DNA from: the human T2T-CHM13v2.0 reference genome, Homo sapiens
NCBI RefSeq assembly: GCF_009914755.1
Contig: NC_060925.1
Reading direction: 5' to 3' (one strand)
DNA: 64,000 bases
The notes beneath the pieces were generated by a model. The model was not told where the DNA came from. It did not search any database and worked only from the letters and a program-made list of their open reading frames with translations. Shown here piece after piece: positions 21,116 through 27,531 of this stretch. A program made the translations under genes and the position numbers. Position 1 is the first letter of the stretch, and each line of letters begins with the position of its first letter.

Positions 21116-21480
21116 AAAGCTGATTGTTTCTCACCATAAAAGTAAGATACATTGGTTGGGCTCAGTGGTTCATGCCTGTAATCCCAGCAATTTGGGAGGT
21201 TGAGGTGGGTGGATCACTTGAGGTCAGGAGTTCGAGACCAGGCTGGCCAACATGGTGAAACTCTGTCTCTACTAAAAATACAAAAATTAGCTAGGCATGG
21301 TGGCACATGCCTGTAATCTCGGCTACACAGGAGGCTGAGGCAGGAGAATCACTTGGACCCAGGAGGCAGAGGTTGCAGTGAGCTGAGATTGCGCCACTGC
21401 ATTCCAGTCTGGGTGATAGAGTGAGACTCCATCCCCCTCCCCACAAAAAGTAAGATATATCCATATAACAGACTAGTAAA
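21116..21480 (+). repeat. About 365-bp direct repeat, left copy (flanks the provirus)
   Basis: Matches 27168-27531, including non-Alu flanks: first 31 bp and last 20 bp identical. Confidence 0.95.
21154..21450 (+). mobile_element. Alu (AluSx/Sz-like), copy 1 of the duplicated block
   Basis: Full dimer; own TSD aaaagtaagatacat (21138-21152) / aaaagtaagatatat (21446-21460). Confidence 0.96.
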
Positions 21481-21911
21481 TGAGAGGTGAAGCCAGCTGG
21501 ACTTCCTGGGTCGAGTGGGGACTTGGAGAACTTTTCTGTCTTACATGACGATTGTAAAATGTACAAATCAGTGCTCTGCAAAAATGCACCAATCAGTGCT
21601 CTGTAGCTAGCTAGAGGTTTGTAAAATGGACTAATCAGCACTCTGTAAAATGGACCAATCAGCAGGACAAGGGTGGGGACAAATAAGGGAATAAAAGCTG
21701 GCCACCCCAGCCAGCAGTGGCAACCCACTTGGGTCCCCTTCCATGCTGGGGAAGCTTTGTTATTTTGCTCTTCACAATAAATCTTGCTGCTGCTAACTCT
21801 TTGGGTGTATGCCACCTTTAAGACCTGTAACATTCACTAGGAAGGTCTGTGACTTCATTCTTGAAGTCAGCAAGACCAAGATCCCACATGAAGGAAGGAA
21901 CTCCAGACACA
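21481..21911 (+). promoter_or_regulatory. ERV9 5' LTR (LTR12F-like) with CCAAT repeats
   Basis: Starts tgagaggtgaagccagctggacttcctggg; repeated (c)caatcag(c/t); gggaataaaag promoter element near 21687; AATAAA near 21776; ends ...gacaca. Confidence 0.9.
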
Positions 21912-21914
21912 TCT

Positions 21915-21932
21915 TGGTGACCACAAAGGGAC
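21915..21932 (+). other. Primer-binding site, tRNA-Arg type
   Basis: tggtgaccacaaagggac differs from TGGCGACCACGAAGGGAC by two CpG-type transitions and lies just after the LTR; splice donor ggtgagt follows at about 21944. Confidence 0.85.
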
Positions 21933-23079
21933 TATTGCCAAGCGGTGAGTACCATTGGACCTCTTTTGCTTGGTATTCTGTCCCATTTTTTCTTAGAATT
22001 TGGGGACTAAACACTGGGCATCTCTTGGCCAGTTAAAAGTGACTAGTGCAGCCACCAGACTAAGGACATGGGTGTCAGGCTTTCTGGGAAAGTGTTCGCT
22101 AATTCTTCCCCAACTGTTCGGAACAGGGAGCATTGGTTTACCTAGAACCAGCTTCCACATTTCCTGTACTTCTGGGCTGAGCCAAGGGTTGACAGAGAGG
22201 AAAGCCATTTAGCTCCAGGGTCCCAGTAAAAAGTTGTTTGACTCTGTAGCCATGATCAGAACTCTCAAAGTCATGTCACCCATGCGAGACTTGCCCATCT
22301 GTCCTATCTATCCTGACGCTTGCCTCCTGGGTCCTAACACCTGTCAGACAAACTTCCTCCTGCCTCTCTTCTCTGAGGCTAGTCCCACTTCTAAAAACCA
22401 CTCCCTGTTTCTGGTGCTTTTCTAGTTTCTCCTATAAGAATGATTACTAGTATAAATTTCAGGACTCTGTTCCCTTGTTTAGGCACCCAGGCTCACCAAT
22501 TAGACATAATTTTTGCCCAAAGCCCCATCATTTTAGGATACCTCTTCAGACTAGCAGGCCTAACAAAGGCTATTCCTGAAGCTAGGATTTGGGGAGCTTC
22601 AGAAATGATATCCTTCCTATCCATATGACGAGAAGTGAGGACAAAAGGCTTCATTTTTCCAACCCTGGAGATCTCTTCCCTCCCTCATTGTATAGCCCTC
22701 CACTCCATTGTTGGGACATATCATGCTTACAGGACAGGGATAAGGTCCCAACACTAATAGGAGAAAATGCTTAGGACCCTAACAGGTATTCGAGAATGCA
22801 TTGGTAATGACCACTAAATCTGATTTGTCTTGGTCCTGTTTGTGGTCTAAGAGAGCCAAGGGAGCAGGTTTTCAAGAATGCGTTGGTAAGGGCCATTAAA
22901 TCCAACCTTCCTCAGTCCTCATTGTGGTCTAGGATGAAAACTAGTGTTTCTGCTGCTGCGTTGGTGAGTGCAACTATTCTGATCAGTAGGCTCCAGGGAC
23001 CGTTGTGGCTTCTTGGGTAGGGTGGGGGGGGGGGGGGGTAAACGAAAAGACCAGAACCGTGGGTGGTTTTTTCTTTCAG

Positions 23080-24537: not shown

Positions 24538-24960
24538 GGGTGCCTGGGGCAAGCACCAGCTCATGTCATCACCCTCCCTGTGCCCGGGGTATGTTTAACC
24601 ATTGAGGGCCAGGAAATTGACTTCCTCTTGAACACTGGCGCGGCTTTCTCAGTTTTAATCTCCTGTTGTGGATGACTGTCCTCAAGGTCCGTTACAATCC
24701 GAGGAATCCTGGGACAGCCTGTAACCAGGTATTTCTCCCACCTCCTCAGTTGTAATTGGGAGACTTTGCTCTTTTCACATGCCTTTCTTGTTATGCCTGA
24801 AAGTCCCACACCCTTATTAGGCAGGGACATATTAGACAAAGCTGGAGCTATTGTCTACATGAATATGGGGAACAAGTTACCCATTTGTTGTCCCCTGCTT
24901 AACAAGGGAATCAACCCTGAATTCTGGGCATTGGAACGACAATCTGGAACAGCAAAAATG
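24538..24960 (+). pseudogene. pro: ERV9 protease (inactive, DTG changed to NTG)
   Basis: IEGQEIDFLLNTGA and PESPTPLLGRDIL motifs; in-frame stop. Confidence 0.85.
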
Positions 24961-26740
24961 CCTGCCCAGTCCAAATCAGGCTAAAAGACCCCACCGCTTT
25001 TCCTTTTCAAAGGCAATATCCCTTAAGGCCTGAAGCTCATAAAGGATTACAGGATATTGTTAGACATTTAAAAGCTCAAGGCTTAGTAAGAAAATGCAGC
25101 AGTCCCTGCAACACCCCAATTCTAGGAGTAAAAATACTGAACACTCAGTGGAGACTAGTGTAAGATCTTAGACTCATCAGTGAGGCAGTGATTCCTCTAT
25201 ATCTAGTTGTACCCAACCCCTATACCCTTCTCTCTCAACTACTAGAGGAAGCAGAATGGTTCATGGTTCTGGACCTGAAGGATGCCTTCTTCTGTATTCC
25301 CCTGTACTCTGACTCCCAGTTTCTCTTTGCCTTGGAGGATCCCACAGACCGCACATCCCAACTTACGTGGATGGTCTTGCCCCAAGGGTTTAGGGATAGC
25401 CCTCATCTGTTTGGTCAGGCACTGGCCCAAGATCTAGGCCACTGCTCAAGTCCAGGCACTCTGGTCCTTCCACATGTGGATGATTTACTGTTGACTACCA
25501 GTTCGGAAGCCTCATACCAGCAGGCTACTCTAGATCTCTTGAACTTTCTAGCTAATCAATGGTACAAGGCATCTAAATTGAAGGCCCAGCTCTGCCTACC
25601 ACAAGTCAAATATCTAGGCCTAATCTTAGCCAGAGGAACCAGGGCCCTCAGCAAGGAACGAATACAGACTATACTGGCTTACCGTCTCCCAAAGACATTA
25701 AAACAGTTGTGGAGGTTCCTTGGAATCACCGGCTTTTGCCGACTATGGATCCCCGGATACAGTGACATAGCCAAGCCCCTCGCTACTCTAATCAAGGAGA
25801 CCCAGAGGGCAAATACTCATCTAGTAGAATGGGAACCAGAGGCAGAAACAGCCTTCAAAACCTTGAAGCAGGCCCTAGTACAAGCTCCAGCCTTAAGCCT
25901 TCCTACAGGACAAAACTTCTCTATATGCATCACAGAGAGAGCAGGAATAGCTCTTGGAGACCTTACTCAGACTTGTGGGACAACCCCACAACCAGTGGCA
26001 TACCCAAGTAAGGAAATTGATATATTAGCAAAAGGCTGGCCTCACTGTTTACTGCTAGTTGCAGCGGTGGCCATCTTAGTATCAGAGGCTATCAAAATAA
26101 TACAAGGAAAGGATCTCACTGTCTGGACTACTAATGATGTAAATGGCATACTAGGTGCCAAAGGAAGTTTATGGCTATCAGACAACTGCCTGCTCAGATA
26201 CCAAGCACTACTCCTTGAGGGACCAGTGCTTCAAATACGTATGTGTGTGGCTCTCAATCCTGCCACTTTTCTCCCAGAGGATGCGGAACCAATCAAGCAT
26301 GACTGCCAACAAATTATAGTCCAGACTTATGCCACCTGAGAGAATCTCTTAGCAGTCCCCTTAGCTAATCCTGACCTTAACCTATATACCAATGAAAGTT
26401 CATTTGTGGAGAATGGGATATGAAGGACAGGTTATGCCACAGTTAGTGATGTAACAGTACTTGAAAGTAAGCCTCTTCCCCCAGGGACCAGCACCCAGTT
26501 AGCAGAACTCGTGGCACTTACCCAAGCCTCAGAACTGAGAAAGGGAAAAAGAACAAACGTGTATATAGATAGCAAGTATGCTTATCTAATCCTACATGCC
26601 CATGCTGCAATATGGAAAGATAGGAAGTTCCGAACCTCTGGCAGAATCCGCATTAAATTCCACAAGGAAATCATGGAGTTATTGCACATAGTGCAAAAAC
26701 CCAAGGAGGTGGCAGTCTTACACAGCCGAAGCCATCAAAA
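24961..26740 (+). pseudogene. pol: ERV9 pol RT and RNase H (defective; 383-aa residual ORF at 25188-26339)
   Basis: LDLKDAFF, LPQGFRDSP, HVDD (YxDD mutated), FLGITGFCRLWIPG; RNase H QLAELVAL and YIDSKYAY. Confidence 0.92.
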
Positions 26741-27158
26741 AGGGGAAGGAGAGGGGAGAACAGCAGCATAAGTGGCTGGCAGAGGCAGGGAAAGACCAGC
26801 AGAGAAAGACAGAAAGAGAGAGAGAGAGAGAGAGGGGTAAGACAAAGTCAAAGAGAGAAGGAAAGAGAGACAGAGAGAGGAAGAGACAGAGTGACAAAGA
26901 GGGAGTCAGAGAGAGAGAGGAAGAGACAGAGACAAAGAAGGAGTCAAAGAGGAAGAGACAGAAAGCCAAAGAGAAAGAAAGAGAGAAATAGTAAAGAAAA
27001 AACACTGGACCCTATTCCTTTAAAAGCCAGGGTAAATTTAAAACCTATAATTGATAATTGAAGGTCTTCTCTGTAACTCTATAACACTCCAGTATCACCT
27101 TGTTGTCAGTGTAAATAAGGGCGTAGCCCGAAAGCACTGAGGCCACTGACAACCCATA
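26740..27158 (+). mobile_element. Foreign ERV segment (HERVIP10F/FH-like) with AG-rich expansion fused to ERV9 pol
   Basis: Abrupt switch after HQK to a purine-rich tract (about 26800-27000), then a second RT-connection-like remnant (VSVNKGVA...GH*QP). Confidence 0.6.
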
Positions 27159-27167
27159 ACGGTGTTT

Positions 27168-27531
27168 AAAGCTGATTGTTTCTCACCATAAAAGTAAGGT
27201 ATATTGGCTTGGCTCAGTGGCTCATGCTTGTAAGCCCAGCATTTTGGGAGATTGAGGCAGGTGGATCACTGGAGGTCAGGAGTTCTAGACCAGGCTGGCC
27301 AAAATGGTGAAACTCTGTCTCTACTAAAAATACAAAAATTAGCTGGGCGTGGTGGTGCATGCCTGTAATCCCAGCTACACGGGAGTCTGAGGCAGGAGAA
27401 TTACTTGAACCTCGGGGGGCGGAGGTTGCAGTGAGCAGAGATCGCGCCACTGCATTCCAGTCGGGGCAATAGAATGAGACTCCATCTCAGAAAAAAAAAA
27501 GGAAGATATAACCATATAACAGACTAGTAAA
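27168..27531 (+). repeat. About 365-bp direct repeat, right copy (contains Alu at 27206-27500)
   Basis: Shares unique flanks and private Alu variants (gaccaggctgg, gctacac, gcattccagtc) with 21116-21480. Confidence 0.95.

What the first reader, a model, noticed from the sequence alone, without database searches (positions are those of the whole stretch)
21116..27531. ERV9 provirus flanked by a ~365-bp direct duplication (whole Alu plus unique flanks) instead of a 4-bp TSD
Seen: 21116-21480 and 27168-27531 are the same block. The first 31 and last 20 non-Alu bases are identical, the Alu's own TSD is present in both, and they share private Alu variants (gaccaggctgg, gctacac, gcattccagtc). So this is one Alu copied, not two insertions. 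The intact LTR start (TG) abuts the left copy exactly. The other viral end is broken inside pol and joins the right copy through about 9 nt of filler (acggtgttt). By eye the copies differ at about 35-40 positions (about 10%, many at CpG), so the event is old. Known: ERV9 makes about 4-bp TSDs (see the LTR12 at 29729), and one-ended integrations with large host duplications are described experimentally when one viral end or integrase is impaired. Inference: this may be a germline fossil of half-site integration finished by host repair, or a later repair-templated rearrangement.
Basis: partly seen in the sequence, partly recalled or inferred. Interest (0 to 1): 0.8.

Follow-up and report, generated by a model that had tools for sequence, protein, structure and literature searches.

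The report
Truncated ERV9 provirus with 365-bp duplication
An ancient retrovirus copy that lost its far end sits between two copies of the same 365-base piece of host DNA, the scar expected when only one end of the virus was inserted properly and the cell patched the other; similar scars are already known for another human endogenous retrovirus family.

Summary
21116-21480 and 27168-27531 are one host block (an Alu, its own target-site duplication and about 38 and 36 nt of unique flank) present twice in direct orientation. These are the only two copies in the genome.

Between them lies a 3'-truncated ERV9/LTR12-like provirus: 5' LTR, gag, pro, RT and RNase H. Its LTR starts with the exact processed TG against the left copy. 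Homology to 7 of 7 relatives stops at 27158. Nine unmatched bases then join it to the right copy. About 1.06 kb of internal sequence (env TM remnant) and the 3' LTR are missing.

Relatives have ordinary 4-bp duplications: 4 perfect and 1 with one mismatch, out of 5 scorable. The two block copies differ by 6.5-6.9% at non-CpG sites. That lies inside the 4.4-7.1% range of 5'/3' LTR pairs in four relatives, so the duplication is about as old as the family's integrations.

The best reading (about 0.62) is a germline fossil of a one-ended, integrase-made insertion completed by host repair. Published HIV and ASLV experiments produce this anatomy. HERV-K(HML-2) loci with 111-450 bp flanking repeats, one of them a truncated provirus, are already in print. 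So this is a new member of a known kind. Primate orthologs, the decisive test, could not be examined.

The parts
21116..21480 (+). Left copy of the duplicated host block: unique flank (21116 to about 21153), Alu with its own short target-site duplication (about 21154-21444), unique flank (21445-21480). It ends ...GACTAGTAAA directly against the LTR.
21481..21911 (+). 5' LTR of 431 bp, LTR12-type. It starts TGAGAGGTGAAGCC and ends ...CCAGACACA. The U3 holds repeated CCAAT-box units and a GTGGGGA motif.
   Evidence: The motif list for LTR12 comes from PMC11853044. Subfamily LTR12F is suggested by length only.
21912..23079 (+). Primer-binding-site region and long untranslated leader, including a G-run at about 23018-23038.
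   Evidence: collinear with 28 relatives
23080..24530 (+). gag, broken by stops and frameshifts. It starts MGNTQ at 23080. Matrix (Gag_MA, below Pfam's cut-off), capsid (Gag_p30, below cut-off), and a zinc-knuckle-like stretch at about 24360-24420.
24560..24984 (+). Protease (RVP), broken.
25000..26760 (+). pol: reverse transcriptase (RVT_1, about 25239-25625), connection domain (RT_RNaseH_2, about 25830-26123) and RNase H (about 26463-26753). No integrase follows. The RefSeq 'silencer' 26489-26689 lies inside the RNase H part.
   Evidence: hub annotation for the silencer
26761..27000 (+). AG-rich low-complexity stretch, a family feature also present in relatives.
27001..27158 (+). Short second pol-like remnant (translation PIPLKARVNLKPIIDN...). 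The viral sequence breaks off after ...CAACCCATA at 27158.
27159..27167 (+). 9-nt filler ACGGTGTTT at the aberrant junction. It matches neither the relatives nor the host block, and no nearby template was found.
27168..27531 (+). Right copy of the duplicated host block, followed by unique host DNA (CATCATGAA...).

Best explanation
This is a germline fossil of an aberrant (one-ended, non-concerted) retroviral integration, roughly 25-35 million years old.

Inferred sequence of events:
1. The processed U3 end of an ERV9/LTR12-like viral DNA was joined by integrase to host DNA between ...GACTAGTAAA and CATCATGAA....
2. The other viral end was never inserted by integrase. The viral DNA was broken about 1.5 kb short of its right end.
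3. Host enzymes attached this broken end, after adding 9 untemplated or unidentified bases, 365 bp to the left of the first joint.
4. Fill-in or copying of the intervening host stretch left it on both sides as a 365-bp 'target-site duplication' in place of the family's normal 4 bp.

Shown here: the exact LTR end, the break point, the filler, the duplication and its uniqueness, the 4-bp norm in relatives, and the matching age. Inferred: that integrase made the left joint, that host repair made the right one, and that both belong to one event.
For: 1. Exact viral end. The LTR starts with the processed TG at 21481, like relatives. The two bases before it (AA) are host, because the right copy reads GTAAA|CATC. 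In relatives' 3' LTR junctions the base before TG is T. An unprocessed end joined by the host should have kept that base.

2. Broken other end. 7 of 7 relatives continue past 27158 with GC(C/T)TTCCT.... The window has 9 foreign bases and then the block. The 2-LTR relative L040 is collinear up to that point and then has 1061 bp, including env TM (TLV_coat, E=1.8e-26), and a 3' LTR.

3. Duplication. The repeat is direct and abuts the viral ends. Its unique flanks are found only twice in the assembly. No homology extends beyond its edges.

4. Family norm. TSDs could be scored in 5 of the 10 long relatives' loci fetched. 4 have perfect 4-bp duplications (ATGA, GTAG, GTAA, AAAG) and 1 has 3 of 4 bases matching (AGAC/AGAT). 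In the 9 of these 10 loci that were compared end to end (L043 was not), no long duplication flanking the provirus was seen.

5. Timing, compared like for like with one method. The block copies show 37 mismatches in 358 aligned positions and 23/334 (6.9%) at non-CpG sites, or 19/293 (6.5%) without the A-tail. The 5'/3' LTR pairs of four relatives show 4.4, 5.8, 6.9 and 7.1% at non-CpG sites.

6. Experimental match (PMC5041404, passages read). Aberrant proviruses mostly have one normal end. The other end is often truncated. Host DNA is most commonly duplicated there, by 'hundreds or thousands of bp'. The authors' model has the unintegrated 3' end priming on nearby host DNA.
Against: 1. No ortholog or empty site could be examined, so a single-copy pre-integration state is not shown.

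2. This provirus has the longest terminal branch of 29 copies in the LTR/leader tree: 0.068 at non-CpG sites, against a family median of 0.0385 and 0.043 for its sister L010. Taken at face value that is about twice the per-copy divergence of the block (about 0.034), which would make the duplication younger than the provirus. A terminal branch is only an upper bound on time since integration, because no close relative exists (nearest copy 13.1% away). Gene conversion between the block copies could also lower their divergence. The discrepancy is real and unresolved.

3. In the cited experiment, wild-type virus without drug gave 0 aberrant among 99 integrations. Such events are rare for a normal virus.

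4. Integrase involvement is inferred from one exact junction only.
Confidence: 0.62

Rival explanations
1. Pre-existing tandem duplication. A host segment containing the block was already duplicated in tandem. A normal integration with a 4-bp duplication then hit the left copy. A later deletion ran from inside the provirus, through the 3' LTR and the rest of the left unit, into the right unit. In this model the integration site sets the right edge of the present homology and the deletion breakpoint sets the left edge.
For: It reproduces the present sequence without needing any coincidence of edges. A 9-nt filler is typical of end-joining at a deletion. Kahyo et al. propose the same model as an alternative for the truncated HML-2 provirus at 6p25.2 (PMC5488345, discussion read).
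Against: It needs three separate events. The block copies are no more diverged than the family's LTR pairs, so the duplication would have had to arise only shortly before integration. No other trace of a larger duplication remains.
Confidence: 0.17
2. Normal integration followed by a later rearrangement. One route is an unequal end-joining or crossover between a chromosome carrying the provirus and one still empty, joining a break in the provirus to a break left of the block. Another is a replication template switch that replaced the 3' part of the provirus with a copy of the upstream block.
For: The filler at the junction fits end-joining or template switching. The long terminal branch of this provirus relative to the block's divergence would fit a duplication younger than the integration.
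Against: The filled/empty route must happen while the insertion was still polymorphic and must then become fixed. The template-switch route must return exactly at the outer edge of the 3' LTR. Block divergence equals the family's LTR-LTR divergence, so any later event was not much later.
Confidence: 0.14
3. Insertion without integrase. Either a fragment of viral or genomic ERV DNA was captured at a staggered double-strand break, or an ERV transcript was inserted by LINE-1 (processed-pseudogene style), which can make long duplications.
For: Long target-site duplications are also made by LINE-1 (recalled, not checked here). The block starts with AAAG after an A-rich run.
Against: The insert starts at the first base of U3, which is not part of a retroviral transcript. 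There is no poly(A) at either end. The viral end is the exact processed TG rather than a nibbled or unprocessed end.
Confidence: 0.05

Closest known systems
HERV-K(HML-2) loci with long flanking direct repeats, especially the truncated provirus at 6p25.2 with 111-bp repeats (Kahyo et al. 2017, PMC5488345, which cites Mamedov et al.; Macfarlane and Badge 2015, PMC4422153)
   Same: A one-LTR, 3'-truncated provirus lies between long direct repeats of host DNA. A few unassigned bases sit at the truncated end (7 bp there, 9 nt here). Those authors weigh the same two models: a true long duplication from inefficient integration, or a 'pseudo-TSD' from a prior duplication.
   Different: The virus class differs: gammaretrovirus-like ERV9/LTR12 with a 4-bp norm, against betaretrovirus-like HML-2 with 5-6 bp. 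This locus is much older: its repeats are about 10% diverged, against 0-3 mismatches per repeat pair in that paper's Table 2. Its 365-bp repeat is longer than their verified cases (111 and 250 bp) and shorter than their putative 450 bp. No pre-integration allele is known here.
Experimentally produced aberrant integrations of HIV-1 and ASLV vectors, made with one defective viral end, a suboptimal integrase inhibitor or weakened integrase mutants (Varadarajan et al. 2016, PMC5041404, which cites Oh et al.)
   Same: One normal viral end and junction. The other end is truncated. Host DNA is duplicated by hundreds of bases at the aberrant end. Extra sequence can sit at the junction.
   Different: Those are somatic events in cultured cells with engineered vectors or drugs. 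This is a fixed germline element of an extinct virus, and the cause of the failure at its second end is unknown.
Ordinary ERV9/LTR12 proviruses of the same subgroup (for example the two-LTR copies L040, L044, L046 and L047 elsewhere in this genome)
   Same: Collinear internal structure: LTR, leader, gag, pro, RT, RNase H, AG-rich stretch, pol-like remnant. The LTR termini are the same, and divergence is of a similar order.
   Different: They keep the env TM remnant and the 3' LTR, and they have 4-bp duplications. This copy lacks both and has a 365-bp duplication plus filler.

Membership tests
ERV9 / LTR12 (class I, gammaretrovirus-like ERV) | LTR whose U3 holds tandem units of about 40 nt with CCAAT boxes and a GTGGGGA-type motif; the LTR12F subtype is about 500 bp | tested here: met
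   The sequence at 21541-21680 shows repeated ...AATCAGC units (two with intact CCAAT) and GGTGGGGA. The feature list comes from PMC11853044. The LTR is 431 bp. The subfamily name LTR12F is not verified, because no Dfam or RepeatMasker library was available.
ERV9 / LTR12 (class I, gammaretrovirus-like ERV) | Gammaretrovirus-type gag, protease and pol domains | tested here: met
   Pfam hits: Gag_MA (25.4 bits, below cut-off), Gag_p30 (20 bits, below cut-off), RVP, RVT_1, RT_RNaseH_2 and RNase_H (all above cut-off). A relative has TLV_coat env TM.
ERV9 / LTR12 (class I, gammaretrovirus-like ERV) | 4-bp target-site duplication | tested here: not met
   This copy has 365 bp instead. Relatives meet the feature: 4 perfect and 1 with one mismatch, out of 5 scorable. 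This failure is the anomaly under study, not evidence against family membership.
Aberrant one-ended integration product (as defined experimentally in PMC5041404) | One viral end and its host junction are normal | tested here: met
   The exact processed TG start sits against host DNA.
Aberrant one-ended integration product (as defined experimentally in PMC5041404) | The other viral end is truncated or rearranged and joined by the host, often with extra sequence | tested here: met
   Break at 27158 in comparison with 7 of 7 relatives, plus a 9-nt filler.
Aberrant one-ended integration product (as defined experimentally in PMC5041404) | Direct duplication (or deletion) of flanking host DNA of hundreds of bp at the aberrant end | tested here: met
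   365/364-bp direct repeat.
Aberrant one-ended integration product (as defined experimentally in PMC5041404) | The pre-integration site holds the duplicated stretch once | not testable with these tools
   No primate genomes or human variant data were available.
LINE-1-mediated processed copy of an ERV transcript | Starts in R (no U3), ends in poly(A), and is inserted at a T-rich/A nick site | tested here: not met
   The insert starts at U3 base 1 and has no poly(A) at either junction.
Dispersed or larger segmental duplication | Further copies exist, or homology extends beyond the block | tested here: not met
   The unique flanks occur only at the two places. Homology stops at the LTR edge and at the filler.

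The most novel reading that the evidence does not exclude
This would be the first recognised class I (gammaretrovirus-like, ERV9) germline fossil of a one-ended integration: integrase joined only the U3 end, and host polymerase and recombination finished the job about 30 million years ago. It would then be among the oldest such scars described. It would also show that the 'long TSD plus truncated provirus' signature seen in HML-2 is a general, datable by-product of retroviral germline invasion, and one that could be counted genome-wide. A bolder, untested addition concerns the subgroup itself. In the copies examined it carries no integrase or env SU, so it must have been mobilised in trans. 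That could make faulty end pairing more likely.
Probability: 0.55. Interest if true: 0.45.

Novelty: new member of a known kind. Interest (0 to 1): 0.36.

Why it matters
Retroviral integration is normally a concerted two-ended reaction that leaves a fixed short duplication. Products of failed concerted integration are known from cell-culture experiments and from a handful of young HERV-K loci. An old, fixed ERV9 example shows that such events entered the germline in another retroviral class and can survive for tens of millions of years. It gives a sequence signature (one exact LTR end, a truncated other end, filler, a long direct host repeat) that could be searched for genome-wide to estimate how often integration misfires in nature. 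It also marks a pair of 365-bp direct repeats 6 kb apart that could mediate deletion of the element. The biology is not new, and no host function is implied.

Tried and rejected
- Template for the 9-nt filler. The only other exact match in the window is at 6926-6934 on the - strand. A search allowing one mismatch in five relatives and in 20-29 kb of the window found only scattered one-mismatch matches, none of them a plausible template. No template was identified.

- APOBEC-type G-to-A hypermutation as the cause of this copy's long branch. At non-CpG sites, G>A averages 11.2 and A>G averages 10.6 per comparison. There is no such signature.

- Dating by terminal branch length. This gives only an upper bound and disagrees about two-fold with the block. 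I relied instead on the like-for-like comparison with relatives' LTR pairs.

- The LTR12-like element at 29729-30423 as the missing 3' LTR. It is inverted and only 72-84% identical to this LTR in pieces, so it is an independent insertion.

- A wider scan of 20 relatives for long duplications. Five loci were fetched instead, so the scan is small.

- Literature. No report of long flanking duplications for ERV9/LTR12 turned up in the listings of four full-text searches. The listings show only the top 12-15 papers each, and subscription journals are not covered.
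Full report

Yes. The repeat finder on 20000-29000 returns three collinear direct-repeat segments, 21116-21366/27168-27418, 21362-21433/27415-27486 and 21445-21480/27496-27531, at 89-94% identity. 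A global alignment of 21116-21480 against 27168-27531 gives 321 matches, 42 mismatches (25 transitions, 17 transversions) and 3 gap columns.

The block is an Alu with its own short duplication (AAAAGTAAGATA[C/T]AT on both sides), plus about 38 nt of unique DNA on the left and 36 nt on the right. The unique parts differ at 2 of 40 and 2 of 36 positions.

Searching the whole assembly with each unique flank and its neighbourhood finds only the locus itself and the other block copy, with 2 of 2 candidates scored each time. So one block was copied locally. These are not two Alu insertions, and the block does not belong to a dispersed duplication. No homology extends beyond the block on either outer side.

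**2. What lies between the copies?**

A retroviral element on the + strand occupies 21481-27158.

- The LTR runs from 21481 to 21911 (431 bp). It begins TGAGAGGTGAAGCC and ends ...CCAGACACA. It carries repeated CCAAT-box units and a GTGGGGA motif. The LTR12 review gives these as typical of ERV9 LTRs and puts LTR12F at about 500 bp (PMC11853044, passages read). I could not run a repeat library, so 'LTR12F' remains a plausible label, not a tested one.
- Pfam finds Gag_MA and Gag_p30 (both below their cut-offs), and RVP, RVT_1, RT_RNaseH_2 and RNase_H (all above cut-off), in order along the + strand. All frames are broken by stops.
- After RNase H comes an AG-rich stretch (about 26761-27000), then a short second pol-like remnant (27001-27158). 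There is no integrase.
- This odd layout is a feature of the subgroup, not of this copy. The two-LTR relative L040 is collinear with the window from 21481 to 27158 in two overlapping alignments at 80-88% identity. It then has a further 1061 bp and a 3' LTR. That extra piece encodes an env TM remnant (TLV_coat, E=1.8e-26).

**3. The two junctions**

Left junction. The host sequence ...GACTAGTAAA is followed directly by TGAGAGG. Homology to the 3' LTRs of relatives L002, L005 and L008 starts exactly at 21481. The LTRs of L044, L046 and L047 start with the same bases. The AA before the TG belongs to the host, because the right copy reads GTAAA|CATC. In relatives the base between the polypurine tract and TG is T. 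An unprocessed viral end joined by the host should have brought that base along. The left end therefore looks like a normal, integrase-processed and integrase-joined end. That last step is an inference.

Right junction. A 121-nt probe across the break matched other copies only up to its position 79, which is 27158 (40 of 364 candidates scored). In 7 of 7 fetched relatives the alignment ends at 27158. All 7 continue GC(C/T)TTCCT..., while the window reads ACGGTGTTT and then the block. The 9-nt filler has no identifiable template. About 1.06 kb of internal sequence plus the 3' LTR are missing.

**4. Is a 4-bp duplication really the family norm?**

Its flanks read CCAT and ATAG.

I therefore fetched ten long stretches around relatives. 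Both ends could be scored in five of them. L040 has ATGA, L044 GTAG, L046 GTAA and L047 AAAG, all perfect. L048 has AGAC/AGAT, a 3 of 4 match. The other five could not be scored for a TSD. L039 and L041 lack the start of the 5' LTR (L039 by about 140 nt of the LTR, L041 by about 19 nt). L042 and L043 showed no 5' LTR in the fetched stretch. L045 showed no 3' LTR in the stretch.

Nine of the ten loci were compared end to end (L043 was not). In those nine, comparing the first part of each stretch (4 kb for four loci, 2.5 kb for five loci) with the part beyond the 5-kb or 4-kb mark respectively found only LTR-to-LTR and Alu-type matches.

**5. Timing**

The best like-for-like clock is the pair of LTRs of a normal provirus. 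Like the two blocks, they are identical at integration and lie 6-7 kb apart. Using one method for all pairs:

| Pair | All sites | Non-CpG sites | CpG-associated sites |
|---|---|---|---|
| Block copies | 37/358 (10.3%) | 23/334 (6.9%) | 14/24 |
| Block copies, without Alu A-tail | 33/317 | 19/293 (6.5%) | 14/24 |
| LTR pairs of L040, L044, L046, L047 | 7.4-11.5% | 4.4, 5.8, 6.9 and 7.1% | 50-72% changed |

The block falls inside the family range. An independent count with CpG columns marked from 9 window Alus gives 17/237 (7.2%) in the Alu body. The duplication is thus about as old as the integrations of this subgroup. With a recalled catarrhine non-CpG rate of roughly 1.0-1.3e-9 per site per year, that is about 25-35 million years. 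This agrees with the review's statement that ERV9 invaded about 30 million years ago.

One result goes against a simple reading. In a tree of 29 LTR/leader copies, this provirus has the longest terminal branch: 0.111 at all sites and 0.068 at non-CpG sites. The family medians are 0.071 and 0.0385, and its sister L010 has 0.043. Its nearest relative is 13.1% away. If the whole branch were post-integration decay, the provirus would be about twice as old as the duplication. A terminal branch only bounds the integration age from above, and there is no G-to-A hypermutation to explain the excess. I leave this unresolved. It keeps a later rearrangement alive as a rival.

**6. Mechanism**

The anatomy is what Hughes and colleagues describe for aberrant integrations (PMC5041404, passages read). 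In most cases one viral end and its junction appear normal. The other end is 'often, but not always, truncated'. Host DNA is 'most commonly' duplicated where it meets the aberrant end, with repeats that 'could be hundreds or thousands of bp long'.

Their model is that the unintegrated viral 3' end primes synthesis on nearby host DNA and is then resolved by recombination. This gives a duplication on one side of the first joint or a deletion on the other.

Applied here, the broken top-strand end at 27158 gained 9 nt. It then copied host DNA from 21116 rightwards through the block. Resolution left the block on both sides. All of this is inferred. Such events are rare for normal virus: 0 of 99 integrations in their no-drug control.

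**7. Rivals**

(a) A tandem duplication that existed first, then a normal integration into the left unit, then a deletion from inside the provirus into the right unit. This leaves an identical sequence, and Kahyo et al. raise it for their truncated HML-2 locus. It needs three events, and a duplication made only shortly before integration, since the blocks are no more diverged than the LTR pairs.

(b) Normal integration followed by an unequal exchange with a still-empty chromosome, or by a template switch.

(c) Integrase-independent capture, or LINE-1-mediated insertion. The U3 start, the exact end and the lack of poly(A) argue against these.

I put these at 0.17, 0.14 and 0.05, against 0.62 for one-ended integration.

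**8. Comparison with what is known, and novelty**

Long direct repeats flanking HERV-K(HML-2) elements are in print. Kahyo et al. 2017 report 250 bp at 7p21.2 (verified against the empty allele), a putative 450 bp at 21q21.1, and a truncated one-LTR provirus at 6p25.2 with 111-bp repeats and 7 unassigned bases at the truncated end (PMC5488345; abstract, results and discussion sections read). That paper cites Mamedov et al., which I did not see.

Macfarlane and Badge 2015 attribute such repeats to 'inefficient integration' (PMC4422153, passage read). Their reference list includes the ASLV and HIV aberrant-integration experiments.

I found no such report for ERV9/LTR12 in the listings of four full-text searches. 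Those listings are partial, and subscription journals are not covered.

The locus is therefore a new, older member from another retroviral class of a kind of scar that is already described, with a mechanism already proposed. It is a tidy example, not a surprise. I score interest at 0.36.

Noticed in passing
window 29729-30423 (- strand): An LTR12-like LTR of a different subtype, with several U5-type repeats. It is only 72-84% identical in pieces to the LTR at 21481. It lies 2.2 kb right of the duplication in inverted orientation. Its flanks read CCAT (5') and ATAG (3'), so there is no clean 4-bp duplication. An imperfect AGTAC(C/TC)AT is present on both sides but offset by 2 nt on the 3' side. 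It may be a recombinant or decayed solo LTR.
   Followed up: partly
window 26489-26689: The RefSeq 'silencer' feature from the hub annotation lies wholly inside the RNase H-coding remnant of the provirus.
   Followed up: no
window 26761-27158; L040 1200-2700 (- strand): In the copies examined, this ERV9-like subgroup has no integrase or env SU. After RNase H come an AG-rich low-complexity stretch, a heavily deleted second pol-like remnant and an env TM remnant, then the LTR. This points to a non-autonomous, trans-mobilised lineage with many copies (364 first-look candidates for a 121-nt probe, 40 scored).
   Followed up: partly
window 21800-23020 compared with 28 relatives: This provirus has the longest terminal branch of the 29 copies compared (0.068 at non-CpG sites against a median of 0.0385). 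It has no close relative and no G-to-A hypermutation signature. The cause is unexplained.
   Followed up: partly
window 23018-23038: A run of about 17 G in the leader just upstream of the gag start codon.
   Followed up: no
window 21433-21444 compared with 27487-27499: The Alu A-tail differs sharply between the two copies: CCCCCTCCCCAC in the left copy against CTCAGAAAAAAA in the right. This accounts for 7 of the 42 mismatches and suggests tail instability or a local conversion after the duplication.
   Followed up: no
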